Shown: one piece after another, positions 5,143 to 47,458 of the stretch
Layout: each line of letters opens with the position of its first letter
Position numbering within the stretch: position 1 is the first letter of the stretch
DNA from: an uncultured Actinomycetota bacterium
Lineage (GTDB): Bacteria; Actinomycetota; Actinomycetes; Sporichthyales; Sporichthyaceae
NCBI GenBank assembly: GCA_963703165.1
Contig: OY969798.1
Span: 4,622,585-4,686,584 of the forward strand
DNA: 64,000 bases
Direction: 5' to 3'
Notes under the pieces: generated by a model
Told to the model about the DNA's origin: nothing
The model's database searches: none
Seen by the model: only the letters and a program-made list of their open reading frames with translations
Position numbers and translations under genes: made by a program

Positions 5143-5152
5143 CCCAGGCCCG

Positions 5153-8624: not shown

Positions 8625-8629
8625 GTGCG

Positions 8630-9601: not shown

Positions 9602-11175
9602 CACGAGCCGTTGCCGTCGTCGGCAACGGGCCGGTCGGGCAGACCACGGCTTTGCTGTTTGCGCGGTGGGGGCTGCGCGTGGTGCTGCTCGATGCGCGGC
9701 CGACACGGGATCGGGTCGGGTCGAAGGCGATCTGCCAGCAGCGGGATGTGCTTGATCTGTGGGATTCCCTCGGCGCGGGCTGTTTGGCGACCGAGGGACT
9801 GACGTGGACGACGGCTCGGACCTTCCATGGCGAGCGGGAGCTGCACCACTGGTCGTTCGTGGACCGTGGATCCTCACCGTTGCCACCGTTCGTGAACATC
9901 GGGCAGCACCGGACCGAACAAGTGCTGGACGAGCTCATTGCCCGTCAGCCCCTGATCGACGTGCGGTGGGGGTGCGAGGTCCTCGGGCTCGAGCAGGACC
10001 AGCACGGCGTCCGGTTGAGCTGCGCGGACGGTTCCGCGGTGGAGGTCGGTCACGCGGTGGTGGCAGCGGGGGCGCACGCCACTTCCTTGCGCGAGGCGTT
10101 GGGGGTGAGCTTCCTCGGCGAGACCTTCGCTGATCGGTTCCTCATCTGCGACATCCGCGTCGACCTTCCGGGGTGGGAGAGCGAGCGGCGGTTCTGGTTC
10201 TCCCCGCCGTGGAATCCGGACCGGCAGGTGCTGATTCATCCGACCCCGGACTCGGTGTTCCGCATCGACTGGCAGGTCCCGCCGGACTACGACCTCGCCG
10301 CGGACGAGGCGAGCGGGGGACTGGACCGTCGGATCCGCATGATCGTGGGGGAGCGGCCCTACGAGGTCGTGTGGCGCAGCGTGTATCGGTTCTCGTCGTT
10401 GGTGGTTGATCGCATGCGGGTCGGGAGGGTGCTGCTGGCCGGCGACGCCGCGCATCTGATGGCACCGTTCGGGGCGCGCGGGCTGAACTCCGGGGTCGCG
10501 GACGCGGAGAACGCGGCCTGGAAGATCGCCGCGGTCGAGCACGGCTGGGCGCCGAAAGAGTTGCTCGCGACCTACGACTTGGAACGTCGCGCCGCTGCCG
10601 TCGAGAACCTCGAGATCACCGGGGCGACGATGCGCTTCCTCGCGCCGGCGGACGCCGCGCAGTGGGAGGCGCGGCGGTTGGCGCTCGCGGATGCCGATGC
10701 GGATCCTGAGGCCGCAGCGCGCATCGACTCCGGGCGGTTCGCCGAGCCCTACTGGTACGTCGACTCGCCGCTGACCACATCCAGTGTCGACAGGCCGTTC
10801 GTGGGGCGACCGCCCAAGGGGCATGCACCGGCGCCGGGGCCGGGGGTACTGATCCCGGACCTGCCGATCTCCGACCCGCACCGGCCCGAGGTCACCCGGC
10901 TGCGGCAGCTCGTCCGTGACGGGGTGCTGGTGTTGGTGAGCGGGGGCTTCGATGTGCCTGCGCTGGGGGTCGCTGTGAAGGATGCGGTCGCGGCACCGAC
11001 CCGGACGCTCGCATTCACCGATCTCGTCGGTGGCAGCGATCTGGTCGCCATGGTGGCCGCAGGGCCGGACGAGGCGTGGGTGGTCCGGCCGGACGGGCAC
11101 ATCGCCGCCGTCGTGCGCGTGGGTGATGGCAGCGAGGCCGTGGTTGCGGCGGTCCGGCGGGCATGGGGGTTCTGA
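9598..11175 (+). CDS. FAD-binding aromatic-ring hydroxylase (PheA/TfdB/MhpA class A flavoprotein monooxygenase)
   Basis: The GTG at 9598 overlaps the MBL stop (GTGA). Motifs: GxGxxG (VAVVGNGPVGQTTALLFARWGLRVVLLD), the DG motif (HAVVAAGAH), and GD...G...N.G..DA (VLLAGDAAHLMAPFGARGLNSGVADAENAAWKIA). Confidence 0.8.
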   Translation: MTRAVAVVGNGPVGQTTALLFARWGLRVVLLDARPTRDRVGSKAICQQRDVLDLWDSLGAGCLATEGLTWTTARTFHGERELHHWSFVDRGSSPLPPFVNIGQHRTEQVLDELIARQPLIDVRWGCEVLGLEQDQHGVRLSCADGSAVEVGHAVVAAGAHATSLREALGVSFLGETFADRFLICDIRVDLPGWESERRFWFSPPWNPDRQVLIHPTPDSVFRIDWQVPPDYDLAADEASGGLDRRIRMIVGERPYEVVWRSVYRFSSLVVDRMRVGRVLLAGDAAHLMAPFGARGLNSGVADAENAAWKIAAVEHGWAPKELLATYDLERRAAAVENLEITGATMRFLAPADAAQWEARRLALADADADPEAAARIDSGRFAEPYWYVDSPLTTSSVDRPFVGRPPKGHAPAPGPGVLIPDLPISDPHRPEVTRLRQLVRDGVLVLVSGGFDVPALGVAVKDAVAAPTRTLAFTDLVGGSDLVAMVAAGPDEAWVVRPDGHIAAVVRVGDGSEAVVAAVRRAWGF

Positions 11176-13550: not shown

Positions 13551-14654
13551 CTATTTCGTCAGCTCGGCACGGACGATCGCAGCGCCGTCGGCCAGGGCAC
13601 GGAGCTTGTTCTGCGCGATCATGCGCGGCAGGTTGATCAGCCCACAGTCGGTGCCCAACCCGAGCCGTTCGGCCGGAACGAACTCCATGACCGAGCGGAT
13701 GCGGTCCGCGACCTCGTCGGCGGTCTCCGTGATCGTGCTCTTCACGTCGATGACGCCGGCCACGAACGGCTTGTCCCAGTTGGCGTCGGCCAGCGGCTTG
13801 AGGTCGTCGGGTCCGGTGCGGCCGACCTCGTAGTTCAACGCGGTCACGTTCAGTTGGGTCACCTGCGGGAAGACGGCCTGGGCGCGGTGGGTGCCTGCGT
13901 TGCGGTCGCGGCTGCCGAGCACCGAGGCGTTCCAGACGTCCTTCTCCGTGTCATCGGGCGCGTAGCCGGGCGTGCCCGAGTAGTTGCCCCAGCAGGTGTG
14001 CACCCAGACGTCGCAGCTGACGCCCTCGACCGCGGTGTTGAAGGCGTCGACCTCCCAGTCGCCCATCCCGTAGGGCCAGACGAACTCGTCCATCTGGATG
14101 ATGTCGCAGCCGTTGTCGGCCAACTGCTTGAAGTCCTCGTTGAGGGCCCTGCCGATGGCCTGGGAGAGCTTCTTGATGTCGCCGTAGTGCGTATCGGTCG
14201 CGGCGGCTGCCAACACGCCCACGCCGCAGTAGGAGACCTTCACCGGCTTCTTGGTCGCCTTGCGCACGGCGCGCAGCGTGGCGAGGTGGAACGGGTGCTC
14301 CCGTTTGACGTCGCCGACGCAGGTGGGGGAGTAGAGCGTCGAATAGATCGGCAGCGGGATGGGCGGGCCGGACATCTTGAAGCCGGTCATCCGCTCGTAG
14401 TAGTGGTACACGAAGCCGGCGTAGGCGCTGTCGCCGCCGAAGACCTTGCCGTCGGAGATGATGTCGATCCCCGACATCTCCTGGTCGTGCACGATCGCCA
14501 GCACCGCGTCCTCGAGCGCCTCACGGCTGATCGTGTCGTAGATGAACTCGCCCTTGGGGAAGGTCGCGAACGCCTGCCCGTCGTACCACCGCGGATTCGG
14601 GTAGTTGCCGACCATCGAGGTGGGCAGAAGGATGTCTTGATTTCCGACTCGCAT
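13551..14654 (-). CDS. etnE: MetE-like zinc alkyltransferase; candidate epoxyalkane:coenzyme M transferase (EaCoMT, XecA/EtnE-like)
   Basis: The 367-aa protein has the cobalamin-independent methionine synthase C-terminal fold and Zn ligands (IQMDE, VHTCWGNY, GTDCGL). The ATG at 14654 has a GAGGAG ribosome-binding site. The gene sits directly downstream of 2-KPCC and a short-chain dehydrogenase in the same operon. Confidence 0.6.
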   Translation of the reverse strand: MRVGNQDILLPTSMVGNYPNPRWYDGQAFATFPKGEFIYDTISREALEDAVLAIVHDQEMSGIDIISDGKVFGGDSAYAGFVYHYYERMTGFKMSGPPIPLPIYSTLYSPTCVGDVKREHPFHLATLRAVRKATKKPVKVSYCGVGVLAAAATDTHYGDIKKLSQAIGRALNEDFKQLADNGCDIIQMDEFVWPYGMGDWEVDAFNTAVEGVSCDVWVHTCWGNYSGTPGYAPDDTEKDVWNASVLGSRDRNAGTHRAQAVFPQVTQLNVTALNYEVGRTGPDDLKPLADANWDKPFVAGVIDVKSTITETADEVADRIRSVMEFVPAERLGLGTDCGLINLPRMIAQNKLRALADGAAIVRAELTK

Positions 14655-14676
14655 GGGGCCAGCTCCTCTGGATCGA

Positions 14677-15411
14677 TCAGATCGATGTCCATCCACCGTC
14701 GAGCACGACGGCGGATCCGTTCATGTACGAAAGCCTGCCGGTGGCCAGCAGGGTGATTGCCTCGGCGATGTCGTCGGGAGCGGCGACTCGACCGAGCGGA
14801 ACCTTCGTCTCGATTGCCTCCCGTAGTTCCGGAACGTCCAACCGCCAGGCGGTCATCGGGGTGTGCACCATCCCGGGGCAGATGGCATTGGACCGGATGC
14901 CGGACGGTCCGTAGTCAACCGCCAGCGACTTCGCGAACATCAGGGCGGCACCCTTCGAGGTCGTGTACGCGCAGCGTCCAGGGAAGGCCACCATCCCTGC
15001 CACGGACGCGACAGTGATGACGTGACCGGACCTGCGCTCGAGCATGCCGGGAAGCACGGCGCGTGCACAGAGGTACGGGCCGCGAACATTGACCGCGTGC
15101 ACCCTGTCCCACTCCTCGATCGGGGTGGTGTGACAGGGCCCGGCCGCCGGGGAGCCGGTGATCCCCGCGTTCGCGACGAGCACGTCGACCCGGCCGAACT
15201 CGCGGAGGACGGCCTCGAAGGCGCCGCCGACGCTCGCTGCGTCGGCGACATCGACCTGAGCGGAGAATGCGGCGGAGCCGGCGACCTGCTTCGCCGCGTC
15301 GGCGTCCAGGTCGAGCACAGCGACCTGGAGACCGTCGGCGATCAGGCGCGCGCATGCGGCTGCCCCGATGCCGGAGCCGCCACCTGTGACCACCGCGACC
15401 GCGGCACTCAC
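14677..15411 (-). CDS. short-chain dehydrogenase/reductase; candidate 2-hydroxyalkyl-CoM dehydrogenase
   Basis: TGGGSGIG Rossmann motif, NAG, and a YxxxK catalytic motif (CAYTTSKGAA). The GTG at 15411 overlaps the 2-KPCC stop (GTGA). Length is 244 aa. Confidence 0.7.
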   Translation of the reverse strand: MSAAVAVVTGGGSGIGAAACARLIADGLQVAVLDLDADAAKQVAGSAAFSAQVDVADAASVGGAFEAVLREFGRVDVLVANAGITGSPAAGPCHTTPIEEWDRVHAVNVRGPYLCARAVLPGMLERRSGHVITVASVAGMVAFPGRCAYTTSKGAALMFAKSLAVDYGPSGIRSNAICPGMVHTPMTAWRLDVPELREAIETKVPLGRVAAPDDIAEAITLLATGRLSYMNGSAVVLDGGWTSI

Positions 15412-17006
15412 AGGTCGGTGAGATCCGTGTTGCCGGCGCGCAACCGGGAGAGTTGGATGAAGTGCTCCGGGTTGAGGAACAGCTCGTTCATCCACCCGAT
15501 CTCGTCGATCGTGATGCCCTTCTTGATGAGGTAGTCCAGATACTGGAACGCGTCCTTGGCGCCCATGCCGACGTGGTGCGCGCCGAGCATGCGGCGCGAC
15601 TTGTTGTCGTAGATGCACTTCTGGAATCCGGTCAGTTCCGGCCGGGTGTGCGCGTAGAGCATGGTGCCCTCCGACAACGGCAGGCAGATCTCGTCGTTGC
15701 GGATGCCCTTGGGCGGCATCTGAATCACCGTGATGTCGCCGTACTGCTCCCGGGCCTCCTCCTCGGACAGACCTACCCAGGTGACCTCGTACGTGGTGTG
15801 CAGGAAGTCGGGGTACTCCGAGAAGTCGAACTCGATGTCCTCCCCGGCGATGTTGCGGGCCGCGGTGACGCCGCACTTGCGGGCCTTGAACATCTCCATC
15901 GGGGAGCCGATGAGGTCGCCGATCGCATACACGCCCGGGACGTTGGTCTGCATGCGGCCGTTGACCTTCACGAAGCCCTTCTCGTCCACCTCCACACCGA
16001 GGGTGTCGACGTAGATCTGCGAGGCCGGACGTTCGCCGGTGCCGATGAAGACGAACGAGGTCTCGAAGATTTTCTCGGACCCGTCGGCAAGGCGCACCCG
16101 GACACCGGTGACCGCGCCGTTGATGTCAGCTGTGTCGCCGAGGACCTCGAGCGGTTCGCAGCCCTCGACGATGTCGATGCCGCGCAGCTTCATGTTATCC
16201 ACGACGTAGGTCCGCAGGTCTTCGTCGACGTGGTGCATGCTCTGCGTCCGCATCAGCGGGCTGCGGGACAGGATCGTGGTCCGGCAGCCGGCCGCCTGGT
16301 AGAAGGAGCCGTACTCCATCGCCACCTTGGACCCGCCGATGATCACGCAGCTGTCCGGCTCGAAGTCCAGGCCCGGGTCGATCAGCGAGGCGAAGTCGTA
16401 AACCCCCGGCCTGTCGAGGCTCAGGCCCTTGATCTCCGGCGGGACGTAGGTGTGCGCGCCGGTGGCGAGGACGAGGTTGTCCGAGGTGAAGATCCGTCCG
16501 GCGGCCTCGACGCGGAACTTGCCGTCCTCCGGGGGGAGCACCGTGGCCCACGCGTTGAGAATGTACTCCATGTCCAGTTGTTCCTTGGACTGCCAGTTCA
16601 TGAAGGCGTGCGCGTTGTTCCGGCCGTTCTTGAACAGGTTGATCATGTCGACGATCGAGGCCCTGGACTCATCGAACTTGGGGAACCAGAAAGTGTCGGA
16701 GTTCCAGCGCATGTAATCCATCTCGCGCGCAGCCTCGGAGAAGAGATGGTGCGGGACGCAGGCCTGGTGGGGGCATGAGCCACCGAGGAACGGCCACTTC
16801 TCGACGATGAGCTGGCGCAGCTCGCGGGCTTGGGCGAATGCCGAGCCGAAGCGCCCACCGGCCCCACCGCCGACGTAGATGACGTCGTAGTGGGTGCCCT
16901 TCTCCGTGTGCACATTCTCCAGCGGCTCGGTGACCTCACCAACCTCCGCCTGGTGGATGAGGGTCTCCCACTCGGCCATCGTCAGGTGCGTCTCGCGCAG
17001 GTCCAT
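15408..17006 (-). CDS. xecC: NADPH:2-ketopropyl-CoM oxidoreductase/carboxylase (2-KPCC, DSOR family, XecC-like)
   Basis: QLIVEKWPFLGGSCPHQACVPHHLF redox disulfide, MEMFKARK, DFLHTTYEVTWVGLSEEEAR, and a C-terminus FQKCIYDNKSRRMLGAHHVGMGAKDAFQYLDYLIKKGITIDEIGWMNELFLNPEHFIQLSRLRAGNTDL. This C-terminus carries F-x4-H (FLNPEHF) in place of the usual DSOR His/Glu. All of this matches Xanthobacter 2-KPCC as I remember it. The ATG at 17006 is preceded by an AGGAAGGA ribosome-binding site. Confidence 0.75.
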   Translation of the reverse strand: MDLRETHLTMAEWETLIHQAEVGEVTEPLENVHTEKGTHYDVIYVGGGAGGRFGSAFAQARELRQLIVEKWPFLGGSCPHQACVPHHLFSEAAREMDYMRWNSDTFWFPKFDESRASIVDMINLFKNGRNNAHAFMNWQSKEQLDMEYILNAWATVLPPEDGKFRVEAAGRIFTSDNLVLATGAHTYVPPEIKGLSLDRPGVYDFASLIDPGLDFEPDSCVIIGGSKVAMEYGSFYQAAGCRTTILSRSPLMRTQSMHHVDEDLRTYVVDNMKLRGIDIVEGCEPLEVLGDTADINGAVTGVRVRLADGSEKIFETSFVFIGTGERPASQIYVDTLGVEVDEKGFVKVNGRMQTNVPGVYAIGDLIGSPMEMFKARKCGVTAARNIAGEDIEFDFSEYPDFLHTTYEVTWVGLSEEEAREQYGDITVIQMPPKGIRNDEICLPLSEGTMLYAHTRPELTGFQKCIYDNKSRRMLGAHHVGMGAKDAFQYLDYLIKKGITIDEIGWMNELFLNPEHFIQLSRLRAGNTDLTDL

Positions 17007-17017
17007 GGTTGTCCTTC

Positions 17018-18016
17018 CTAGGGCGTGGCAGGCGTCTCGACGACCACCGCTGGGGTGAAGGCGTCGAAATAGATGTTCCGAGGCCGCACGCCGGCGCCGG
17101 TCAACAGCGGCACAGCGGCGGAGATCATGGGGGGCGGACCGCACAGGTACACGTCGTGGCTCAGGGTCGGGGACCAAGCGGCGATCGCGTCGGTCACGAA
17201 ACCGCCGACAACCGGGTGGAACTCGAAGCCGGGAAGTCGATCGCCGATGGCTGCGATCTCCTCGACGAGGTACAGGTCGGCCTCGGTGCGCGCTCCGAAG
17301 AAGAAGGTGATCGGGCGGTCGAACGCTTTGTCGGCGCAGTCACGGAGCAGCGACAGGATCGGCGCGAGACCGGAGCCACCGGCGATCATCAGCACGGGGC
17401 GGTGCGACAGGCGGATCCGTAGCTGACCGTACGGGCCGTGAACTCGGACGGGGTCGCCGGCGGTGGCCGCGCCGAGGAAGCGGGAGAACGCCCCGTCCGG
17501 GTACAGCTTGACGATCAGGTCGACCCGATCGTCCTGAGCCGGCGCGTTCGCCAACGAGAACGTTCGGACCAGGCCCGACGCGGGGACCTCCACGTTGACG
17601 AACTGCCCGGCGACGAAGGGCATCCGTTCGCCGACGATGCTCAGCCGGATGGCGGCGATGTCCGCGGTCAAGTGCTCGATCGAGTCCACCACGGTGTCGT
17701 AGGGCCGTGAGGTGTCGCCGGAGAGAAACTCGCCCTCGGTCAGCCCGGTGGGGTCGACGTCGACGACACAGTCCTCCAGTGGCACGCTCGCGCAGGCGAG
17801 CATCAGATCCTCGGCCCGGTCCTCGCTCGTCAATGCGAACGAGGACCCGTGCTCTTCGACGTCGCCGTCGACCAGTCGCACCTTGCAGGTCCCGCAGCCG
17901 CCGTACTTGCAGCCGTACTTGAGTAGCAGGTTGTTGCGCAGAGCGCCCTCGAGCACGGTTTCGGTGTCCGCGCACTCATACGAGTGCCCGAACGGCTCGA
18001 TGGTGATCTGCGGCAT
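17018..18016 (-). CDS. etnD: alkene monooxygenase reductase component ([2Fe-2S] ferredoxin plus FNR-like FAD/NAD domains; AmoD/EtnD-like)
   Basis: Plant-type ferredoxin cysteines (CKYGGCGTCKV...LACASVP), then RxFS (RTFSLAN) and a GGSGLAP NAD-binding motif. The ATG at 18016 lies 5 nt after the alpha-subunit stop. Confidence 0.8.
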   Translation of the reverse strand: MPQITIEPFGHSYECADTETVLEGALRNNLLLKYGCKYGGCGTCKVRLVDGDVEEHGSSFALTSEDRAEDLMLACASVPLEDCVVDVDPTGLTEGEFLSGDTSRPYDTVVDSIEHLTADIAAIRLSIVGERMPFVAGQFVNVEVPASGLVRTFSLANAPAQDDRVDLIVKLYPDGAFSRFLGAATAGDPVRVHGPYGQLRIRLSHRPVLMIAGGSGLAPILSLLRDCADKAFDRPITFFFGARTEADLYLVEEIAAIGDRLPGFEFHPVVGGFVTDAIAAWSPTLSHDVYLCGPPPMISAAVPLLTGAGVRPRNIYFDAFTPAVVVETPATP

Positions 18017-18021
18017 CGGAC

Positions 18022-19524
18022 TCAGCCGGCCAACGGGTTGCGGATCTCGTACCCGATCGCGCGGATGTCGTCGATCGTCCACATGCGCGGCAGGTCGAGC
18101 ATCGGCTGACCGATCAGGGTGTGCCCGTCGGGGCGGACCCCGCCCATGTCGAGGATGACGTCGGCCAGGTCCCAACCGTGGTAGCGCTCCCAGAACTGCT
18201 TCCGGTGGCGGTAAGCCTCGGGCCAGTTGCTGAAGACCCACTCGCAGCCCTCGCTGCACAACGCGTAGTTCTTCCCGCCCAGGTCGACGATGCGGGCTTC
18301 GTTGCAGTCCAGGCGCGGCATCACGCACGGCATCTGGCAGACCTGGCAGATCGGCGGCAGCCCAGGGAGCTCCTGCAACATCAGCCGGCCTACGGCAGGA
18401 TCGGCGAGGGCGCGGTAGCCCTCCCAGTAGCCCTGGTAGTAACCGGACCACCCGGGATAGTTGTTCTCGAACCACTCGAAGTCCGCCGGACCGGGGGCGT
18501 CCATCCGCCAGAAGTTCAACGGCCAGATCGCCCCGAGCACCTGGGCGATGGTGTGGTGACCCCACGTCACATCGTTGGCCGCGGCGGCCAGGCGGGAGGG
18601 TGGACGGACCCCGAACTCGGAGAGCCGTTCGACGAAGCCGCCGACGAAGTCGTCGACGACCCATTCCTCCCACTGGTTCTTGTAGCTCCACGGCCGGACC
18701 TTCGAGCCGTACTCGGAGGCGAACCCGACGAGCAGGTCAAACAGGCGGTGGCTGTGCCAGAAGTGCCGGTCCAGCGACTTGTTGAGGATCGGGACGTTCT
18801 CCTCCTCTGCCAGCAGCATCATGATCGCGCCGTAGCCATTGGCCATGTGCCGGGCCTCGTCGGACTGGATCGACATCATGACGCTGGCCAGCGCGTTGTC
18901 GCCGTTGGCCACGGCGACCTGCGGTGTCGCCACGAGCAGGATGTTGGTGTACGCGGTTTCCACGACGATGTTGAGCGCGACGATGCAGTCCAGGGGGTCA
19001 CCGGTGTTGAAGTGCTGGAACTCCCCGATGGTGGCCTGGGTCGCGGGGTGCAGGTACATGGAGCGCTGCCCGACGTCCCACCCGGCTGGGTCGGGGGAGT
19101 TGCGCACGTAGTAGTTGCGCAGCGACATCTCCAACTGCGCGTGGCGTACCTCGTCGAGCATCTGGGCGTTATAGCCCTGGCGCATCTCCTGGTTGTCGAT
19201 CGCCGAGATGATCATCCCGCAGCCGGCGACGGCCTGGTACTCCGCGTTGGTGAGGATCGGCAGGACCGGCTTCATGATCTCGTTGAAGCGCGGCTCGGCG
19301 CGGGTTGCCTCACGCATCCGCACGGCGCCGTCGAGAAACGCATGGGTGCGGTCGTCCTTCTCAGCCTCCATCTTCATGTAGTCCCGGATCAGGACGCGGA
19401 ACGGATCCTTGCCCTTCTTCGGCAGTTTGAACTTCGTCTCGAACTTCGGGCGTGACGTGACCGAGGTGAAGTCCCAGTCGTAGGACTTCGTCTTCTCGTG
19501 CAGCGCGCTGAGACTCGATGGCAT
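18022..19524 (-). CDS. etnC: soluble di-iron alkene monooxygenase alpha (hydroxylase large) subunit (AmoC/EtnC-like)
   Basis: The 500-aa protein carries the two di-iron-carboxylate motifs (DEVRHAQLEM; SIQSDEARHMANGY). It is a soluble di-iron monooxygenase (SDIMO) alpha-fold protein. The ATG at 19524 is preceded by AGGACTGAGGAA. Confidence 0.85.
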   Translation of the reverse strand: MPSSLSALHEKTKSYDWDFTSVTSRPKFETKFKLPKKGKDPFRVLIRDYMKMEAEKDDRTHAFLDGAVRMREATRAEPRFNEIMKPVLPILTNAEYQAVAGCGMIISAIDNQEMRQGYNAQMLDEVRHAQLEMSLRNYYVRNSPDPAGWDVGQRSMYLHPATQATIGEFQHFNTGDPLDCIVALNIVVETAYTNILLVATPQVAVANGDNALASVMMSIQSDEARHMANGYGAIMMLLAEEENVPILNKSLDRHFWHSHRLFDLLVGFASEYGSKVRPWSYKNQWEEWVVDDFVGGFVERLSEFGVRPPSRLAAAANDVTWGHHTIAQVLGAIWPLNFWRMDAPGPADFEWFENNYPGWSGYYQGYWEGYRALADPAVGRLMLQELPGLPPICQVCQMPCVMPRLDCNEARIVDLGGKNYALCSEGCEWVFSNWPEAYRHRKQFWERYHGWDLADVILDMGGVRPDGHTLIGQPMLDLPRMWTIDDIRAIGYEIRNPLAG

Positions 19525-19535
19525 CTGTGGGTTCC

Positions 19536-19841
19536 TCAGTCCTTGAACCGGTCGGGTTGGATGTCTGCGTAGATGTCGACCCGGCCGTCGCCCACGACGA
19601 TGCGCCCGTAGTAGCTGGCCATGTTCACCAGGAAGATGCTGGTGTCGATGTCCCGCCCGGCGATGTCGGACAGCTCGGTCATGTCGAAGCTCAGGACGTC
19701 GTCGCACTCGATCTTGTAGAAGCAGTCGCGGAAGTCGATGACCGCGTTGGGCTGACTTTCCGTCACATGCTCGACGGCTGCCTGGGTGTCGGAGGAATTC
19801 ATCAAGGAGATCCCGACGCGGCGCTTGGTGGTGGTGCTCAT
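19536..19841 (-). CDS. etnB: monooxygenase coupling/effector protein (MmoB/DmpM family; AmoB/EtnB-like)
   Basis: The 101-aa protein MSTTTKRRVGISLMNSSDTQAAVEHVTESQPNAVIDFRDCFYKIECDDVLSFDM... Its ATG at 19841 overlaps the beta-subunit stop (ATGA). Confidence 0.7.
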   Translation of the reverse strand: MSTTTKRRVGISLMNSSDTQAAVEHVTESQPNAVIDFRDCFYKIECDDVLSFDMTELSDIAGRDIDTSIFLVNMASYYGRIVVGDGRVDIYADIQPDRFKD

Positions 19842-20875
19842 GCCGACATCCCTGCCTCGTCGAGCGCCTGGCGCTGACGCTCGAGAGAACGGGTCAACGC
19901 TTCTTTCGCGCCCGCCTCGTTGACGCCGGCCGCGGCGAAGGCGGCGAGGAATGCGGTGGCTGCCGCCTCGCAGCGCGGGCCCCAGTCGTCGAGCCAGCCT
20001 CCGATGACCTTGGCGTTGTCGCCGCCGGTGTCCGGGTCCGCACACACCAGGCGAACCAGGGCGGCCACCCCGGTGATGTGCCGGTCGGTGTCCCGGATGG
20101 CTCCGGCGAGCACCGCGGGGGTCGCGCCGTCGCCGGCGTGCGCGGCGCGGTGGCTGAACAACTCGCTCTTGGCCAGACTGCCCAGCAGGGGTTCGAACAC
20201 CAGCGTGGTGATCACCAGGGCCTCGACCCAGTCCTCGCAGGCCACCAGGTGCTCGACGAGTTCTCGGATCGGCACCAGCGCAGGGTCGGACATCCAGGCC
20301 TCGCGCGCACCGGCGTCGGTGAAGGACTCGTCGGACTCGCCGAGATGATCGAGATGGAAGACGATGTCCTGGAGCAGGCGCATCCGGTCCGCGGCCTGGA
20401 ACACCACGGTGAACTGCACGGTGTCCGACATGGCTTGCCGGACGCCGTAGGCCAGGGACAGGAAGAGCCCGTACTCGACGAACGGCCAGGCGGCGTAGAG
20501 CCGACCCAGCACCTCGTCACGCCACGGGCCGGCCGCACTCGTGCCGCCGGGGCGGGTGAGCACGGGCAGGGTCCGTGCGAGCGCCTGTTGGTCCTGATTC
20601 GTGGCGCTCACGAAGGGGCGTTGCCACATGCCCGCCGGGTCGCGGTAGTCCCGCCACATGCTTGTGCGCACCGCGCTGCTGTCGTCGCTCCACGGCGGGG
20701 TGCCGTCGTCGAAGCGCACCGGCCAGTCGATGTGCAGCCACTGCCCGGGATCCGACTGCTGGCCGATCGTGTACGACTCGTACTCACTGGGCTTCCGCCG
20801 CGCCGGGGTGAACCAGGTGAAATTTCGATCGCCGGAGAATTCCTCAGCCGTGTGGCCGGGCACCGTCGCCGTCAT
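19838..20875 (-). CDS. etnA: soluble di-iron alkene monooxygenase beta (hydroxylase small) subunit (AmoA/EtnA-like)
   Basis: The 345-aa SDIMO beta-type protein is first in the operon. The gene order beta, coupling, alpha, reductase is the group-4 alkene monooxygenase arrangement. Confidence 0.75.
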   Translation of the reverse strand: MTATVPGHTAEEFSGDRNFTWFTPARRKPSEYESYTIGQQSDPGQWLHIDWPVRFDDGTPPWSDDSSAVRTSMWRDYRDPAGMWQRPFVSATNQDQQALARTLPVLTRPGGTSAAGPWRDEVLGRLYAAWPFVEYGLFLSLAYGVRQAMSDTVQFTVVFQAADRMRLLQDIVFHLDHLGESDESFTDAGAREAWMSDPALVPIRELVEHLVACEDWVEALVITTLVFEPLLGSLAKSELFSHRAAHAGDGATPAVLAGAIRDTDRHITGVAALVRLVCADPDTGGDNAKVIGGWLDDWGPRCEAAATAFLAAFAAAGVNEAGAKEALTRSLERQRQALDEAGMSA

Positions 20876-21035
20876 GGACCGCCTCCTCGTTGAGGACCTC
20901 CGAGGTCAGTGACGCTAGACACGTGCAGAAGGGCGTTCCTCTACCGATCCGGATGAAGTTTGTAGGGGAGTGTCGATCGGTTCTTACTCCCATCCGGGGT
21001 AGACAGTGCCGGGGTAGGCGTGGCTGGATGACGGG
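20876..21035. promoter_or_regulatory. divergent promoter/operator region between the alkene monooxygenase operon and the GAF-PucR regulator
   Basis: The 160-bp spacer contains the inverted repeat GGGGAGTgtCGATCGgttcttACTCCC around a CGATCG core. Confidence 0.3.
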
Positions 21036-23166
21036 GTGACGCTGCTGGCTGCGCGGGTCGGAACGACCTGGCCCACGCTCATCGAGACCCTGCTCGGGTC
21101 GAGAGCTGCTGCCGTCTCGGCGCCGAGGGTCGTCACCGAGACCGTGGCCGAACTGGCCGAGGCGCAAACCGTGGGCATTGTCGAGTGGGTGCGTGACGTG
21201 CCGAGCGTCGTGCACGAGGTCGGGCCGCCGTTGACCTTGACCGTCCGCCCGCCGGCGGGCCGGGCGGATGTCGCCGGCGTTCCCGCGGTGGTCGTCCAGG
21301 TCGATGACCACCGGGACCTGGTGGTGTTGCGCCCGGCAGGCGCCCCGGCGTTCACCGCCGAGGAGGCTGCCGCCATCGAGGCGGTCAGCACACTGCTCGG
21401 GCACTCCGCGGCGTTCGGTCGCAGGGAAGCCGCGGAGACGTTGAACCGGCTTGCGCGGGAGATCGTCGGCACCCTCGACCTCGACCGGGTGCTGCTCTCG
21501 ATCGCCAACTCCGCCGCCCGGTTGCTGGCCTCCGAGGTCACCGGCGTGCTGCTCGTGCACGGTCCGCCCGATCGCCCGGAACTGCGCATGCGCTGCACCG
21601 TCGGGCACCACTCGCCGGAGACTGCCCGGCTACGCATCCCCGCCGGTCGAGGTATGGCCGGCAAGGTGCTGGAGACCGGACGGCCGGCCCGGGTGGACAA
21701 CTACGCGACGGCGGAGTCGATCACCAAGGACTACCTGCCGATCGCGATCGAGGAGGGCACGCACTCCGGCCTCGCCGTGCCCGTGCTCGACGCCGGCGGG
21801 GCGATCATCGGGGTCCTGGCCGCCTGGCGGATGCGCCCCTCGGTCTACACCGACGAGGACGAGCAGGTTCTCGTCTCCTTGGCCGGTCTCGCGTCCATCG
21901 GTCTGGTCAACGCGCGGGCCTACAGCGACCAGCAACGGGTGACCGCCGAACTGGAGGCCGCGCGCACGGAACTGGCCGACCGGCTGGCCATCTCCGACGA
22001 GGCGGTCTCGATCCACCGTCGGCTGACCGCGATCGCGGCCGAGGGGCAGGACCTGTCGCGGTTGGCCGTCGCCGTGCAGGAGATCGTCGACGGCCCCGTG
22101 GTGATTGTGCCCAGCAGCGACCGCTCGGGCGCGCGCTGGCCGCCCGGGGCCGACGTCCCGCGCGAGCAGGACAGCCGACCCCTGCGCGTCGTGGCAGCCG
22201 AGAGCGGAAGGCTCCGGGCCCGTCTGGGTCCGGGTACCCATCGAGGCCGCGGGAGTGCAGCACGGCGTCCTGCACGCGCGGCTGCCCGCCCGGCCGCGGC
22301 CGCGGGACGTCGTCACCCTCGAACAGTCCGCCGTGATCTGCGCCCTGTTGCTCGGCCACGAGGACGCCGTTGCCGCAGCCTCGGCCCGGTTGCGTTCGGA
22401 GTTCGTCTGGGACCTGCTGGAGGGCCGCGGCGACGCGGATCAGGACAACGCGCTGCGGGCGGTCGCACTCGGCCTGCGCCTGGCGTTCCCGGCTCGGCTG
22501 CTCCTGCTGCGTGGCCGAGGGTTGCGGGAACTGGGCCGGAGCGAGGGATGGACTGCCGAGCAGGCCGAACGCAACCGCATCTGGTGGGGTGGGCGGGTCG
22601 CCTCCGCCGTCGAGGAGTTGACCGGGCACCTGGTCCCCGTGGCGCACCGTGACGAGCACGTGATCGCCATCCTGCCCGCGGCGGATGCCACGGCGGCCCA
22701 CGCGGCGGCGGCGGCTGCCCGATGTCCGTTCGGCGACGTCGTGGTGCAGGGCGGGCTGAGCCGCGAGGTGCCGGGACCTGCCGGACTGCCGCAGGCGCTG
22801 CACGAGGCGCGCGTCGCACTGGCCGCGGTGCCCGCCGGTGCCGCGGTCATGCGTTTCGACGACCTGGGGGTGCTCCAGTTCCTGGTCGCGCCCTCGGGCG
22901 GGGAGGGCCTGCACGCCTTCGCGGCCGGCGTGCTGGGGGACCTGATCGCCTACGACCGCAAGCACGGCACGGAGCTGATCGCGACGCTGGACAGCTGGTT
23001 CGAGAACAGCTGCAGTGTCGCGGGCACGGCGCGGGCGATGCGGGTGCACACGAAGACGTTGGCGTATCGGCTCCGCCGGATTCAGGAGGTCTCGGGCCTG
23101 GATCTGACCGATCGTCAGCGCCGCCTGGACGTCGAACTGGCGTTGCGGGTTCTCGGCCCCACGTGA
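21036..23166 (+). CDS. GAF-domain PucR/CdaR-family transcriptional regulator (frame switch near 22215-22235)
   Basis: The N-terminal frame (21036..22652) has a GAF domain (LDLDRVLLSIANSAARLL...AIIGVLAAWRMRPSVYTDEDEQVLVSLAGLASIGLVNARAY). The C-terminal frame (22105..23166) has a PucR C-terminal HTH (MRVHTKTLAYRLRRIQEVSGLDL). The two overlap out of frame, which implies a 1-nt indel. The gene is divergent from etnA. Confidence 0.6.
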
Positions 23167-23241
23167 ACTGTCGGCGCATGGCGCCCCGACGACACGCGAA
23201 CGGCAGTTTTCTTTCGCGATCGTGGGGGTAGGAGCGGCCGC

Positions 23242-23796
23242 GTGCTGCTGCTGAGACTGCCCGGCGTGTCCTGCCCGGACGACGACACCGCGATGTTGCT
23301 GGACTGCGTGCTCGAGCAGGACCTTGCCCCGGGGGCGAAGGTTCTGGATCTCGGGACGGATCCCGGCCTGATGGCCGGCCTGCTGGAGCAGGCCGGGGCG
23401 GAGGACGTGTCCACCATCGACCTGGGGCGTCGGCTCGGGCGGGCCCGGCTGCGCAGCCGGCGGATGCGCGACCGCTTCGACCTCGTCGTGGCCAACGTCC
23501 CCTTCCTCGCCTGCGGCGTCGAGGGCCGCGGTCGCCTGGACCGCATCTGCCGCGCCGCGCCCCGTCTTCTGGCCGAGGGTGGCGCCCTGTGGCTCGTGCA
23601 ATCCGAACTGTGCGACCCGCAGCTCACGCTCGGCCACCTGGCCGGCTCCGGGCTGCAGGCGCGGATCGTCGAGCGGGGCGAGGTCGCCTTCGGGCCCGCC
23701 ATGTGGTCCCGTGCGGCCGCGTTGCGCGCGCAGGGACGCATCGGCTCCGACCAGTGCACCGAGGACATCGTGGTGATCCGTGCCACTCGGTCCTGA
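23242..23796 (+). CDS. Mtq2/HemK-like class I methyltransferase paralog with degenerate SAM and substrate motifs (likely inactive)
   Basis: It shares its N-terminus (VLLLRLPGV...DDT.LL) and overall fold with the gene at 26093. Motif I reads DLGTDPG (versus DIGTGTG) and motif IV reads NVPF (versus NPPY). It is about 30 aa shorter. Confidence 0.5.
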   Translation: MLLLRLPGVSCPDDDTAMLLDCVLEQDLAPGAKVLDLGTDPGLMAGLLEQAGAEDVSTIDLGRRLGRARLRSRRMRDRFDLVVANVPFLACGVEGRGRLDRICRAAPRLLAEGGALWLVQSELCDPQLTLGHLAGSGLQARIVERGEVAFGPAMWSRAAALRAQGRIGSDQCTEDIVVIRATRS

Positions 23797-24259
23797 CTGG
23801 CTGACGTAGCGTCAGTTCACATCTCGGCAAACTACTTGCCGGTAAAGCGAGCTGGGTCACACCGTGGGGTGGGTTACCCGTCGGTTGTGACGCGAGGCAT
23901 CCCGCTCGGCTCTTGGGGGGGCGCTGCGCCGATGCCAGCATGGGCGCATGACTTGGACCCTCGAACCCATTGCCGACGACCGGATGCGCCTGATGACCCG
24001 CGCGCTCGCGGTTCAGAAGTCTCGCCCCGACGTGTTGATCGACGGACGTACCTCTCTGCACCCGGCCTTCGACGACTGGACCTCGCACCAGGACCCGGCA
24101 GGTCCGGGCCTGCTCTGGGACAGCTCCGCGCTGGTCACCGCGGACTGAGCGCCACGGGTGGCCCCTGGTTTATCCACAGGGTGAATGGGGAGTCACCGGC
24201 CAGACGACGAACTCGAATCACCGGGGACCGTCGCTCGACCCGCATCAAAGGCCGGGCAC

Positions 24260-25039
24260 ATGACCCTCGCACCTGAAGTATTTGACGCGACGCTCTCCGA
24301 TGAGGACCTCTTCAAGGCCCTCCGTCAGGCGGACACGGCGGAACGGGAACGCATCCAGACCCTGCTGGTGGATCGATACAGCGGCCTGGTCCGGGCCATC
24401 GCGGCGCGTTACGCGAACCCGGGCGTCGAGGTGGAGGAGCTCCGCCAGGTCGGCTATGTCGGGCTGGTGCTCGCCATCCAACGCTTCGACGTCGAACGCG
24501 GCATCGACTTCACCGCCTTCGCACGGCCGACCATCACCGGTGAGATCCGGCGCTGGTTCCGGGACAAGCGCCGGTGGGTGCGGCTCCCTCGGCGTGTGCA
24601 GGAGACCAAGGCAGGCCTGACCGTGGCCAACGAGGTGCTCACCCACCAACTCGGCCGGTCCCCAACAGTCTCGGAGCTCGCGGCTCACCTGCACGTCGGC
24701 GAGGAACTCGTGCTCGAGGCAATCACGATCGACGACGCCTTCGTGGCGCTCTCGCTCGATGCGCCGGGGGGCGGGGACGACTCTGACGACTGGACGCTGG
24801 GGGACACCCTCGGAGCCCGCGACGAACGACTGGACCTGATGCTCGACGTCGCTGTCCTCGCGCCGCTGATCGCGGACCTTCCCGAGCGGGAGCGGTCCAT
24901 CCTGCAGATGCGTTTCGGGGACGAACTCACCCAGGCAGAGATCGGCCGCCGGTTGGGGTACTCGCAGATGCACATCTCGCGAATCCTCAACCAGATCTTC
25001 GAGACCCTGCGGGCAGGTCTGGCTGAAGCGGAGTCCTGA
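24260..25039 (+). CDS. group 3 sigma-70 factor (SigF/SigB-like alternative sigma factor)
   Basis: Region 2 (LVDRYSGLVRAIAARY...VGYVGLVLAIQRFDVERGIDFTAFARPTITGEIRRWFRD), region 3, and region 4 HTH (ERERSILQMRFGDELTQAEIGRRLGYSQMHISRIL). Confidence 0.8.
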   Translation: MTLAPEVFDATLSDEDLFKALRQADTAERERIQTLLVDRYSGLVRAIAARYANPGVEVEELRQVGYVGLVLAIQRFDVERGIDFTAFARPTITGEIRRWFRDKRRWVRLPRRVQETKAGLTVANEVLTHQLGRSPTVSELAAHLHVGEELVLEAITIDDAFVALSLDAPGGGDDSDDWTLGDTLGARDERLDLMLDVAVLAPLIADLPERERSILQMRFGDELTQAEIGRRLGYSQMHISRILNQIFETLRAGLAEAES

Positions 25040-26030
25040 GGGAGGAGTGGCCGGCTTCCCAGGAGGTCAGCAGATGAGCGTCGAGCCGGTCGTCCAAGGC
25101 TGTGGCGGCCGCCATGCCGAACAACACGTCCCCCGCCACGTCTGGCTCGGCGCCCATCAGTTCCTCGATCGCCTCGCGCATCACCCGTTCATGCACCGCG
25201 TCCGCGACCGCGTGTTCGGCGTAGAACCGTTCGGCCTCCGGACCGCCTTCGAGCCGGCGGACAACCTCGACCATTCGCTGCGAGCCCAGCGGCGAGGTCA
25301 ATTCGACCACCGCCAACTGGCCCAGCAGCGCACCGCGCAGGGCGCGGTGCAGACCGCACAGGGACATGAAGTTGACGACGGCCAGCATGGGCGCGGGTAC
25401 GACATCGACGTACGCCCCGTACTCGGGAGACAAATCGAATGCCCGCATCAGATCGGCGAACAACCTGCTGTGCATGCGATCCGGGCGCCCACCGCCGTAC
25501 TCGTCGAACTCGACGGCAGCCACCAACGCCTTCGCGGCGCCCTCCAATCGCGGCAGCACCCAGGCCTGCGGATCCGCCTCCTTCAGGTGATACAGGGAGC
25601 GGTGGACCAACACCTCGCGCAGTTGGTCCCGGTCGGGCCGGCGCAGCAGATGCGCTCCCACGCCGGTGGCGGAAGGGGGCCGACGCAGGTCGTCGAACTT
25701 GTCCCGCACGGCAGTGGCGGCGTCGCCACCGTCGGTGTGAACCTCGCCCCGGAGGGCTTGAAGGAAGCGATGCTCCAATTGCTTCCGCAAGGCTAGGACG
25801 CCGAGGTCCCATTCGCGTTCGGCATCGACCGTGACGAAACCTCGGTAGTGCAGCTCGTAGCAGACGTACAACGCGAGCTGAAGGTCCTCGGAGAACGGTG
25901 CGGCGTCACCCAGCCCAGCCGGCACCATGGCGACGTCGTGCCGCAGCGCGCCGATCAGTGTGCTCGATACAGGTCCGCGTGGTTGCGGCAGGGTGGGCGC
26001 CGCCACCGCGATCACAGGTGCCATGGTCAT
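24987..26030 (-). CDS. heme-oxygenase-like di-iron (HDO) redox enzyme family protein
   Basis: The 347-aa protein has paired E/H ligand motifs in helices (YVCYELHYRGF; QLEHRF; VEFDEYGGGRPDRMHSRLF; FYAEHAVADAVHERV). This matches the PF14518-type iron-containing redox enzyme pattern. Confidence 0.55.
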   Translation of the reverse strand: MTMAPVIAVAAPTLPQPRGPVSSTLIGALRHDVAMVPAGLGDAAPFSEDLQLALYVCYELHYRGFVTVDAEREWDLGVLALRKQLEHRFLQALRGEVHTDGGDAATAVRDKFDDLRRPPSATGVGAHLLRRPDRDQLREVLVHRSLYHLKEADPQAWVLPRLEGAAKALVAAVEFDEYGGGRPDRMHSRLFADLMRAFDLSPEYGAYVDVVPAPMLAVVNFMSLCGLHRALRGALLGQLAVVELTSPLGSQRMVEVVRRLEGGPEAERFYAEHAVADAVHERVMREAIEELMGAEPDVAGDVLFGMAAATALDDRLDAHLLTSWEAGHSSLRTPLQPDLPAGSRRSG

Positions 26031-26092: not shown

Positions 26093-26743
26093 GTGCTACT
26101 ACTACGACTTCCCGGCGTCTACGAACCAGAGGCCGACACCCATCTGCTCATCGACTCCGTCCTTGCCGAGGGCATCCCGCCGCACGCCCATGCGCTCGAC
26201 ATCGGAACCGGCACCGGCCGGATCGCTCTTGCACTGAAGGCGTCGGGCGCCGCCCGCGTGCAAGCCGTCGACATCTCGCGTCGGGCCGTGCTCTCAGCAC
26301 GCGTCAACGCATTCCTGCACGGGCTTCCGTTGCGCGTTCGCCGCGGCGATGTGCTGGAGCGTGTAACCGATCGCTTCGACCTGATCGTGGCCAATCCGCC
26401 CTACGTTCCGAGCGACGACAAACTCCGTGTCCGCGACCGGACGAGGACGTGGCACGGGGGAGCGGACGGGCGGGCGATCCTGGACCGGGTCTGCCGTGAC
26501 GCGCCGGCGTTGCTTGCGCCGGGCGGTGTGCTGTGGATCGTGCACTCCGCGTTGTGCGGACCACAGACCACGCTCGACCAGTTGGAATCTGCCGGTCTGC
26601 GCGCGCGGATCGAGCGTAAGGAACGCATCCCGTTCGGACCGGTGCTGCGCTCGCACCTGGAGTGGCTGCGCAAGGAGGGATTGCTCGGACCGGAGGACGC
26701 GTCCGAGGAACTCGTGGTGATCCGGGCGGCTCGGGATGGCTGA
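26093..26743 (+). CDS. Mtq2/HemK-like (TIGR00537-type) class I SAM methyltransferase with intact DIGTGTG and NPPY motifs
   Basis: It starts at GTG 26093 (VLLLRLPGVYEPEADTHLL). Motif I is DIGTGTGRIA. Motif IV is ANPPYVP, the N5-glutamine/N6-adenine methyltransferase signature. Confidence 0.65.
   Translation: MLLLRLPGVYEPEADTHLLIDSVLAEGIPPHAHALDIGTGTGRIALALKASGAARVQAVDISRRAVLSARVNAFLHGLPLRVRRGDVLERVTDRFDLIVANPPYVPSDDKLRVRDRTRTWHGGADGRAILDRVCRDAPALLAPGGVLWIVHSALCGPQTTLDQLESAGLRARIERKERIPFGPVLRSHLEWLRKEGLLGPEDASEELVVIRAARDG

Positions 26744-43834: not shown

Positions 43835-47458
<3,624 letters not shown>

What the first reader, a model, noticed from the sequence alone, without database searches (positions are those of the whole stretch)
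20876..23166. Divergent GAF-PucR regulator of the alkene operon, with a candidate operator and an internal frame switch
A GAF-domain PucR/CdaR-family regulator starts 160 bp from etnA on the opposite strand. This is the typical layout for a substrate-responsive activator. The spacer holds the inverted repeat GGGGAGTgtCGATCGgttcttACTCCC. The regulator ORF switches frame near 22215-22235 (GAF part in one frame, HTH part in another), so as sequenced it would be inactive.
Basis: partly seen in the sequence, partly recalled or inferred. Interest (0 to 1): 0.5.

Follow-up and report, generated by a model that had tools for sequence, protein, structure and literature searches.

The report
PmoR-type alkene operon regulator, frameshift artefact
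This is an ordinary member of an already described family of regulators (PmoR) that sits back-to-back with a propene/ethene-type monooxygenase operon; its "frame switch" is one extra base that is most likely an assembly error, and the proposed inverted-repeat operator is no better than chance.

Summary
A 160-nt spacer (20876-21035) separates the monooxygenase beta-subunit gene from a divergent GAF + PucR/CdaR regulator. Its reading frame changes at 22212.

The interpretation needs three corrections.

(1) The frame switch is a single extra C at 22212. An independent Logan assembly (run ERR12037361) carries the same locus one base shorter. It encodes an intact 709-aa protein identical to both halves. 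The window, from a 5.2-Mb contig, has at least five more frame breaks in three other genes. An assembly indel is therefore much likelier than a pseudogene.

(2) The inverted repeat has 6-nt arms. 56% of shuffled spacers contain one as good, and its left arm is not conserved in any of nine related spacers. Three other blocks are conserved across ten loci: GACGCTAG (a minus-strand TANNNT -10), CGGATGAAGTT, and TACTCC-N5-GGGGTA.

(3) The operon is pmo-type, not etn-type. The alpha subunit is 74.5% identical to NBB4 PmoC and 57% to EtnC. The regulator is 53% identical over its full length to PmoR of Mycobacterium M156 and 28% to EtnR1. No MEDS (EtnR2-like) partner is in the window.

The divergent CdaR/GAF regulator layout was already described for pmoABCD. 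This is a new member of a known, still uncharacterised kind. Interest is low.

The parts
19838..20875 (-). Beta subunit (pmoA/etnA-like, 345 aa) of a four-component soluble di-iron alkene monooxygenase; first gene of the operon
   Evidence: Pfam Phenol_Hydrox E=6.8e-50. NCBIfam aromatic/alkene monooxygenase hydroxylase subunit beta. 63% identical to NBB4 PmoA region and 38% to the NBB4 EtnA region.
13554..19841 (-). Rest of the operon: coupling protein (19539-19841), alpha subunit (18025-19524), reductase (about 17021-18016), 2-KPCC-like disulfide oxidoreductase (15411-17006), SDR (14680-15399), EtnE-like Meth_synt_2 epoxyalkane:CoM-transferase-type protein (13554-14654)
   Evidence: Pfam hits. 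Each maps in a single frame to the genes of L003/L004. Alpha subunit is 74.5% identical to NBB4 PmoC, 57.8% to JS614 EtnC and 56.6% to NBB4 EtnC.
20876..21035 (.). 160-nt divergent intergenic spacer
   Evidence: The Logan contig of the same locus has the same 160-nt spacing.
20882..20888 (-). Shine-Dalgarno GAGGAGG of the beta-subunit gene
   Evidence: Read directly from the sequence; 6 nt upstream of the ATG. Inference.
20911..20918 (-). Conserved block 1, GACGCTAG. On the minus strand it contains TAGCGT (20917->20912), a TANNNT-type -10 candidate for the operon promoter
   Evidence: G, A, C, G, T, A, G are invariant in 10 related spacers. Assignment as the -10 is an inference. No TTGACA/TATAAT-type promoter was found by the consensus scan.
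20938..20960 (.). Conserved block 2, CCTCTACCGATCCGGATGAAGTT (core CGGATGAAGTT at 20950-20960). It lies about -33 to -55 from the inferred start site and is a candidate proximal activator site
   Evidence: GAT and flanking positions are invariant in 10 loci. The block is present even where the divergent gene is a 2-KPCC-like gene (L006) or absent (L005). Function is inferred.
20966..20991 (.).
   Evidence: 6-nt arms. At chance level. Left arm not conserved.
20985..21005 (.). Conserved block 3, TACTCCCATCCGGGGTAGAC. It contains an imperfect dyad TACTCC-N5-GGGGTA (20985-21001) and is the best candidate regulator-binding site
   Evidence: T-CTCC is invariant in 10 loci. The dyad is 5/6 in the window and L001-L004, 6/6 in L005 (TACTCC-GCAGT-GGAGTA), and weaker in L011, L012 and NBB4. 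It is the only such site in the window. Binding is not tested.
21036..22211 (+). Regulator, first frame (residues 1-392): N-terminal GAF-like domain (aa 1-123), GAF (aa 134-290), long signalling helix (aa 273-335), first part of the PucR-type module
   Evidence: Pfam GAF_2 E=1e-15. 100% identical to P0001 residues 1-392. AlphaFold model with mean pLDDT 82. Tandem-GAF proteins are among the best PDB fold matches. The start codon position is conserved (ATG in L001/L002).
22212..22212 (+). Extra C that shifts the frame (AGG-C-TCC)
   Evidence: P0001 reads ...AAESGRSGPVWV.... Only removal of this C gives that translation. The gene is 2131 nt here and 2130 nt in the Logan contig.
22213..23166 (+). 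Regulator, second frame (residues 393-709 plus stop): GGDEF_2 domain (about 22429-22824) and PucR HTH_30 (about 22975-23151)
   Evidence: Pfam GGDEF_2 E=6.9e-10 and HTH_30 E=2.4e-20. 100% identical to P0001 residues 393-709.

Best explanation
The region encodes a PmoR-type one-component transcription factor of 709 aa when the extra base is removed. Its parts, in order, are:
- a tandem GAF-like sensor;
- a long signalling helix;
- a PucR/CdaR-type GGDEF-like domain;
- a C-terminal HTH.

It is transcribed divergently from a pmoABCD-type alkene monooxygenase / coenzyme-M epoxide operon.

Most likely mechanism (inferred, not shown). The GAF module binds an inducer. By analogy with EtnR1/EtnR2 this is more likely the epoxide than the alkene. 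The HTH dimer then binds conserved sites upstream of a promoter with a TANNNT -10 (TAGCGT, 20917->20912) and no recognisable -35. The candidate sites are block 3, TACTCC-N5-GGGGTA at about -80 to -96, and block 2, CGGATGAAGTT at about -45 to -55. Binding activates the operon and probably also controls the regulator's own gene.

The frame switch is one inserted C at 22212. It is most probably a consensus error of the long-read-type assembly that gave the 5.2-Mb source contig, so the real gene is intact.
For: Family and layout:
- 53% identity over the full length to PmoR of Mycobacterium sp. M156, with the same Pfam architecture.
- The same divergent arrangement with the beta-subunit gene occurs in L001-L004, L011, L012 and NBB4 pMYCCH.01.
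- More distant members (about 35% identical) sit next to 2-KPCC-like epoxide-pathway genes.
- The review PMC8784404, section 7.3, describes this layout for pmoABCD of NBB4 and M156.

Activator and epoxide analogy:
- EtnR1 shares the GGDEF_2 + HTH_30 module. It is an activator that responds to ethylene oxide and not to ethylene (PMC11197473).

Artefact reading:
- P0001 is intact and 100% identical.
- The Logan contig is colinear: 160-nt spacer, 2130-nt gene, 76 nt to the next gene.
- The flanking proteins occur on a 5,196,240-bp contig that does not carry the intact protein.
- Codon signature and sequence downstream of the shift show no decay.
- Further frame breaks lie in the DUF222-HNH gene (two), the GNAT gene (two) and the fused carboxylase (one). 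For the carboxylase, homologue P0068 reads straight across the junction.

Regulatory sites:
- Three blocks are invariant or nearly so in 10 spacers whose regulators are 53-86% identical.
Against: - No experiment exists for any PmoR-type protein. Activator versus repressor, the inducer and the binding sites are all inferred.
- The extra C is not in a homopolymer run, which is the commonest context of long-read indels.
- I could not read the Logan contig's DNA or any reads, so a real minority or majority allele cannot be excluded.
- NBB4 shows that pmoR can be genuinely truncated.
- Blocks 1-3 also persist in L005, where no divergent gene is called. Part of their conservation may therefore serve the regulator's own promoter rather than the operon's.
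- The dyad in block 3 weakens in the most distant loci: 3/6 in L012 and NBB4.
Confidence: 0.7

Rival explanations
1. The frameshift is real. In this organism pmoR was recently inactivated by a 1-nt insertion, so the operon is silent, constitutive, or controlled by another factor.
For: - The window sequence carries the insertion.
- The insertion is not in a homopolymer.
- In Mycolicibacterium chubuense NBB4 the orthologous gene keeps only the first ~292-307 residues, next to an IS1380 transposase. Natural loss of this regulator therefore occurs.
Against: - An identical intact allele exists with identical flanks in an independent assembly.
- The 317 codons after the shift are 100% identical to that allele and keep full codon bias.
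- At least five other frame breaks in three other genes lie in the same 64 kb. One is in a large acyl-CoA carboxylase. Two genes carry pairs of shifts a few dozen to a few hundred nt apart. This is the signature of consensus indels.
Confidence: 0.2
2. The inverted repeat GGGAGT-N14-ACTCCC (20966-20991) is the operator of the regulator.
For: - It lies in the divergent spacer.
- Its right arm coincides with the most conserved block, T-CTCC.
Against: - The arms are only 6 nt. 56% of shuffled spacers have an equal or better repeat.
- The left arm is different in every one of nine related spacers and lies in the least conserved stretch.
Confidence: 0.05
3. The protein works like EtnR1: it is the DNA-binding half of a two-protein sensor and needs a MEDS-domain partner (EtnR2-like) encoded elsewhere.
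For: - EtnR1 alone gives no response (PMC11197473).
- One relative (L006/L007, 61% identical) has a MEDS + HATPase_c_2 gene immediately downstream.
Against: - tblastn with NBB4 EtnR2 and with the L006 MEDS protein finds nothing in the 64-kb window. It also finds nothing in L001-L004, L011, L012 or NBB4 pMYCCH.01 near pmoR.
- PmoR-type proteins carry a clear GAF plus an extra N-terminal GAF-like domain. EtnR1 shows neither in Pfam.
- Identity to EtnR1 is only 28%.
Confidence: 0.15
4. The shift is a programmed +1 ribosomal frameshift at the rare AGG codon.
For: The shift site follows an AGG codon. AGG is rare in high-GC actinobacteria and known to provoke +1 slippage in E. coli (general knowledge).
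Against: All 30+ full-length homologues, including the 100% identical one, are single-frame. No conservation of a shift means no programme.
Confidence: 0.01

Closest known systems
PmoR of Mycobacterium sp. M156 (UniProt Q5QJ55; P0020), regulator gene next to propene monooxygenase pmoABCD
   Same: - 53% identity over 711 aligned residues.
- Same Pfam architecture, GAF + GGDEF_2 + HTH_30.
- Same divergent placement next to a four-gene group-4-type monooxygenase (PMC8784404).
   Different: - Different host lineage. The nearest relatives of the window's protein are Sporichthyaceae MAGs.
- PmoR itself has never been characterised beyond sequence, so function is not anchored by it.
MYCCH_RS26755 (pmoR remnant) of Mycolicibacterium chubuense NBB4 plasmid pMYCCH.01
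   Same: - Divergent from pmoABCD.
- The upstream spacer shares blocks GACGCTAG, CGGAT and CTCCCAT.
- The window's alpha subunit is 74.5% identical to the NBB4 one.
   Different: The NBB4 gene encodes only the GAF part, 307 aa. That is a genuine truncation, whereas the window's break is one base and probably an artefact.
EtnR1/EtnR2-Petn of M. chubuense NBB4 (ethylene oxide-responsive activator pair)
   Same: - EtnR1 shares the PucR-type GGDEF_2 + HTH_30 module.
- Both control alkene/epoxide CoM-pathway genes.
- It supplies the only experimental evidence for this group: an activator induced by the epoxide.
   Different: - 28% identity only.
- EtnR1 needs the MEDS protein EtnR2, and none is found here.
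- The etnR genes are co-oriented within the operon, not divergent.
- EtnR1 lacks the N-terminal ~130-aa domain.
CdaR (E. coli) / PucR (B. subtilis) family activators
   Same: C-terminal HTH_30 and GGDEF-like domain. Weak NCBIfam matches to CdaR, AdeR and PmfR cover the HTH region only.
   Different: - Those proteins have no GAF sensor.
- They have different ligands (sugar diacids, purine catabolites) and different known boxes.
- Scores are far below the NCBIfam cut-offs (38 vs 612 bits for CdaR), so this is not an equivalog.

Membership tests
PucR/CdaR family of transcription regulators | C-terminal PucR-type helix-turn-helix (Pfam PF13556 HTH_30) | tested here: met
   E=2.4e-20 on the second frame and 5.1e-20 on P0001 residues 647-705, above the gathering score.
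PucR/CdaR family of transcription regulators | GGDEF-like middle domain (PF17853) | tested here: met
   E=6.9e-10 / 2.5e-09, 37.8-39.6 bits against a cut-off of 24.5.
PmoR-type regulators (GAF + PucR next to pmoABCD) | Full-length similarity to PmoR of M156 with the same domain order | tested here: met
   53% identity over 711 columns, E=0. The same five Pfam hits.
PmoR-type regulators (GAF + PucR next to pmoABCD) | Divergent position next to the beta-subunit gene of a four-component (beta, coupling, alpha, reductase) alkene monooxygenase that is nearer to Pmo than to Etn | tested here: met
   Gene order. Alpha subunit 74.5% to NBB4 PmoC against 56.6-57.8% to EtnC.
PmoR-type regulators (GAF + PucR next to pmoABCD) | Inducer-dependent control of the pmo promoter | not testable with these tools
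   No experiment exists for any member (PMC8784404).
EtnR1/EtnR2 two-protein system | Adjacent MEDS-domain partner (EtnR2) | tested here: not met
   tblastn with NBB4 EtnR2 and with the L006 MEDS protein against the window: the best E-values are 0.31 and 0.011, over short spurious stretches.
EtnR1/EtnR2 two-protein system | Close similarity to EtnR1 (known members are 73-78% identical; 'divergent homologs' are 44-59%) | tested here: not met
   28% identity over 488 columns. Ranges are from PMC8784404.
Genuine pseudogene | Disruption present in the organism's DNA, not only in one assembly | tested here: inconclusive
   An independent assembly has the intact, otherwise identical gene. Reads could not be inspected.
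Programmed ribosomal frameshift | Frame shift conserved among homologues | tested here: not met
   All full-length homologues are single ORFs.
Operator-type inverted repeat | Dyad symmetry beyond chance and conserved in orthologous spacers | tested here: not met
A different dyad (TACTCC-N5-GGGGTA) is conserved in the closer relatives only.

The most novel reading that the evidence does not exclude
PmoR-type proteins would be self-contained, tandem-GAF one-component sensors of short-chain epoxides or alkenes. Unlike EtnR1 they would need no MEDS partner. They would act through the conserved TACTCC-N5-GGGGTA and CGGATGAAGTT elements defined here. The invariant Cys435, or the mostly conserved Cys187 (23 of 28 sequences), could be the residue that the electrophilic epoxide alkylates. 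This would give a single-gene part for propene or epoxypropane biosensors.
Probability: 0.3. Interest if true: 0.45.

Novelty: new member of a known kind. Interest (0 to 1): 0.2.

Why it matters
There are three small practical gains.

1. The apparent pseudogene should not be taken as evidence that this organism has lost control of its alkene pathway. The source assembly seems to carry roughly one indel per 10 kb in this window, so other 'split' genes in it need the same caution.
2. The regulator belongs to the PmoR group, for which no experiment exists. The ten-locus footprint gives concrete sites and a promoter model to test: a -10 TAGCGT, CGGATGAAGTT, and TACTCC-N5-GGGGTA.
3. The closest characterised system (EtnR1/EtnR2) was turned into an ethylene-oxide biosensor. 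A single-protein PmoR sensor would therefore be a useful part if it works alone.

None of this is surprising to a specialist.

Tried and rejected
- Megablast of 19800-23400 against PLSDB plasmids gave no match.
- The sigma-70 consensus and terminator scan of the spacer found nothing.
- I looked for a MEDS partner with two queries. None is in the window.
- I looked for further copies of the conserved motifs in the window. TACTCC-N5-GGGGTA occurs only at the spacer. The two CGGATGAAGTT one-mismatch hits lie inside coding regions and are taken as chance.
- I considered a direct-repeat reading of blocks 2 and 3 (GTTCCTCTACCGATCCGG / GTTCTTACTCCCATCCGG, 72% identical, 45 nt apart). The similarity does not hold in the other loci beyond 'TC-GG', so I did not adopt it.
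- I considered heme or redox sensing because DevS GAF domains are among the best PDB sequence hits. The scores are weak (E about 1e-5) and generic for GAF, so no claim is made.
- The DNA of the Logan contig could not be fetched because the sample file is too large. The position of the extra base therefore rests on the protein sequence and on gene lengths.
- The scan of species-representative genomes did not return the source genome, only two Sporichthyaceae MAGs at 82% identity.
- A literature search for Sporichthyaceae + alkene monooxygenase found nothing.
Full report
**What is in the sequence**

On the minus strand, 19838-20875 encodes a 345-aa Phenol_Hydrox protein. It is followed by:
- an MmoB/DmpM coupling protein;
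- a 500-aa hydroxylase alpha subunit;
- a Fer2/FAD/NAD reductase;
- a 2-KPCC-like pyridine-nucleotide disulfide oxidoreductase;
- an SDR;
- a Meth_synt_2 (EtnE-type) protein.

This is a four-component alkene monooxygenase followed by coenzyme-M-type epoxide pathway genes. On the plus strand, after exactly 160 nt, an ORF starts at GTG 21036.

Pfam places GAF/GAF_2 in the frame of 21036-22652. It places GGDEF_2 and the PucR HTH_30 domain in the frame of 22105-23166. The GC content of the three codon phases changes register at about 22206. A simple frame-segmentation of the whole window puts the change at 22193/22194, with the first frame staying open for 459 nt beyond it.

**The frame switch is one extra C and probably not biological**

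I joined the two halves and searched with the result. This returned P0001, a 709-aa protein from a Logan assembly of run ERR12037361. It is 100% identical to both halves and reads ...VVAAESGRSGPVWVRV... across the junction. The window reads gag agc gga agg C tcc ggg ccc. Removing the C at 22212 is the only single-base change that gives that peptide.

The Logan contig (4478 bp) is colinear with the window:
- a 345-aa beta subunit;
- a 160-nt spacer;
- a 2130-nt gene, against 2131 nt here;
- 76 nt to the same 184-aa methyltransferase-like gene.

The flanking proteins, but not the intact regulator, also occur on a 5,196,240-bp contig held by NCBI and ENA. This is evidently the window's source. 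All other full-length homologues are single ORFs, which excludes a programmed shift.

I then asked whether the window has other frame breaks.
- *Operon and neighbours.* In 13.5-29 kb, all other genes map in one frame to their counterparts in L003 and L004.
- *DUF222-HNH gene.* Its Pfam profile is split between two frames, positions 5-164 and 194-306. It returns to the first frame for the HNH motif.
- *GNAT gene.* It changes frame twice within about 60 nt near 34130-34190.
- *Fused acyl-CoA carboxylase.* It changes frame at 58659/58660 (CTG-C-ATG). Homologues such as P0068 read PAGAPLLRIDP straight across that junction. The source's own gene call (P0077, 744 aa) stops there.

That makes six or so indels in 64 kb, some of them in pairs. 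The 317 codons downstream of the regulator's shift show no decay. This points to consensus errors in a long-read-type assembly rather than to pseudogenes.

I could not inspect reads, and the extra C is not in a homopolymer. A real, very recent mutation therefore remains possible, at about 0.2.

**What the regulator is**

The repaired protein is 53% identical over its full length to PmoR of Mycobacterium sp. M156 and has the same domain order. It is 82-86% identical to proteins of Sporichthyaceae MAGs. It is only 28% identical, over 488 columns, to EtnR1 of M. chubuense NBB4.

The alpha subunit is 74.5% identical to NBB4 PmoC and 57% to the EtnC proteins. The system is therefore pmo-type rather than etn-type.

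[quoted passage not shown] NCBIfam has no model for it. There are only sub-threshold matches of the HTH region to AdeR, CdaR and PmfR.

An AlphaFold model built on 28 homologues (mean pLDDT 82, pTM 0.41) shows:
- an N-terminal alpha/beta domain (residues 1-123);
- the GAF domain;
- a 60-residue helix;
- the PucR-type module and HTH.

Among the best Foldseek matches in the PDB are tandem-GAF proteins (PDE2A/5A, CyaB2) and phytochrome-GGDEF enzymes. The sensor is therefore best described as tandem GAF-like.

No MEDS (EtnR2-like) protein is encoded in the window or next to pmoR in most related loci. One relative, L006/L007, has a MEDS + HATPase_c_2 gene downstream.

**The proposed operator**

The repeat has only 6 complementary bases per arm. 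Of 2000 dinucleotide-preserving shuffles of the spacer, 56% have at least one such repeat with a loop of 20 nt or less.

I aligned the spacer with those of nine related loci, whose regulators are 53-86% identical. They comprise four Sporichthyaceae-type contigs, L005, L006, L011, L012 and NBB4. The left arm (20966-20971) falls in the most variable stretch.

Three blocks are conserved instead:
- *Block 1, GACGCTAG (20911-20918).* On the minus strand it reads TA[G/A/T]CGT in all ten loci. This fits the actinobacterial TANNNT -10 and lies about 30 nt upstream of the beta-subunit ATG, with a GAGGAGG ribosome-binding site in between.
- *Block 2, CCTCT...CGGATGAAGTT (20938-20960).*
- *Block 3, TACTCC-N5-GGGGTA(GAC) (20985-21005).* This imperfect dyad is perfect in L005 (TACTCC-GCAGT-GGAGTA) and weakens in the most distant loci.

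The blocks travel with the regulator even where the divergent gene is a 2-KPCC-like gene (L006) or where none is called (L005).

There is no recognisable -35. That is usual for activator-dependent promoters.

**How it most likely works**

*Shown:*
- the domain architecture;
- orthology to PmoR;
- conserved divergent linkage to alkene/epoxide genes;
- conserved upstream blocks.

*Inferred:*
- The protein is an activator. The only tested relative of the module, EtnR1, is an activator that responds to ethylene oxide and not to ethylene (PMC11197473).
- The GAF module binds the inducer.
- Blocks 2 and 3 are its binding sites, at about -45 and -89 from a start site near 20905.
- It also controls its own promoter.

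Whether it needs a partner protein is open. The absence of a MEDS gene and the presence of a fuller sensor module favour a one-component mode.

**Verdict**

This is a correctly spotted but ordinary regulator of a known, uncharacterised kind. Its two distinctive claims, a pseudogene and an operator repeat, do not hold up. The useful by-products are the ten-locus promoter footprint and a warning about indels in the source assembly.

Noticed in passing
window 5150-6500 (minus strand): The DUF222-HNH ('13E12-type') gene is broken by two frame shifts, near 5713 and 5389. DUF222 profile positions 5-164 are in one frame and 194-306 in another. The HNH motif is back in the first frame.
   Followed up: partly
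window 33740-34380 (minus strand): The GNAT acetyltransferase is split. The N-terminal part is in one frame, about 20 residues are in a second, and Acetyltransf_3 positions 61-137 are in a third. That is two shifts within about 60 nt, near 34190 and 34130.
   Followed up: partly
window 56683-62220 (plus strand), junction at 58659/58660: A single-chain acyl-CoA carboxylase (biotin carboxylase, BCCP, ACC_central, carboxyltransferase) is split by one extra base (CTG-C-ATG). Homologues read PL(L/M)RIDP straight through. The source's own gene call (P0077, 744 aa) ends there.
   Followed up: yes
L008 (NC_018022.1, M. chubuense NBB4 pMYCCH.01) 8977-9900: The pmoR gene of NBB4 (MYCCH_RS26755) encodes only the first ~292-307 residues, the GAF part, of M156 PmoR (83% identical). 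No HTH part follows. An IS1380 transposase lies about 1.4 kb downstream. The published table lists it simply as 'CdaR; GAF domain'.
   Followed up: partly
L003 4134-6305 and 3943-4191 (ENA ERZ25039588 contig_82395): In this related 210-kb contig the alpha subunit and part of the reductase are called as one 723-aa fusion, with an 82-aa leftover. This looks like a frame error in that assembly too.
   Followed up: no
L006/L007 10249-11220: A relative of the regulator (61% identical) is divergent from a 2-KPCC-like gene instead of a monooxygenase. Directly downstream it has a protein that combines a MEDS domain with an HATPase_c_2 (anti-sigma-kinase-like) domain. This is a possible link between the PmoR-type and EtnR1/EtnR2-type systems.
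   Followed up: no
window 47490-47626 (minus strand): A cobalamin riboswitch (Rfam RF00174, 37.7 bits) lies upstream of the long minus-strand ORF 43835-47557. Tetrapyrrole methylase (cobalamin biosynthesis-type) genes lie at 53.3-56.6 kb.
   Followed up: no
window 23242-23796 and 26093-26743: Two paralogous small MTS-type methyltransferase genes (about 39% identical) flank a sigma-70-family factor gene (24185-25039), a Haem_oxygenas_2 'iron-containing redox enzyme' gene (24987-26030, minus strand) and a CDGSH-type small ORF. The first paralogue follows the regulator in L003 and in the Logan contig as well.
   Followed up: no
window 6599-11175: A second oxygenase cluster: an IclR regulator (minus strand) divergent from a styrene-monooxygenase StyA-like protein (Smoa_sbd), a metallo-beta-lactamase-fold protein and a FAD_binding_3 aromatic-ring hydroxylase.
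   Followed up: no
P0001 residues 187 and 435 (window about 21594-21596 and 22339-22341): Cys435 is invariant in 28 family members and Cys187, in the GAF domain, is present in 23 of 28. Epoxides are electrophiles, so either could be a site of covalent sensing. This is pure speculation.
   Followed up: no
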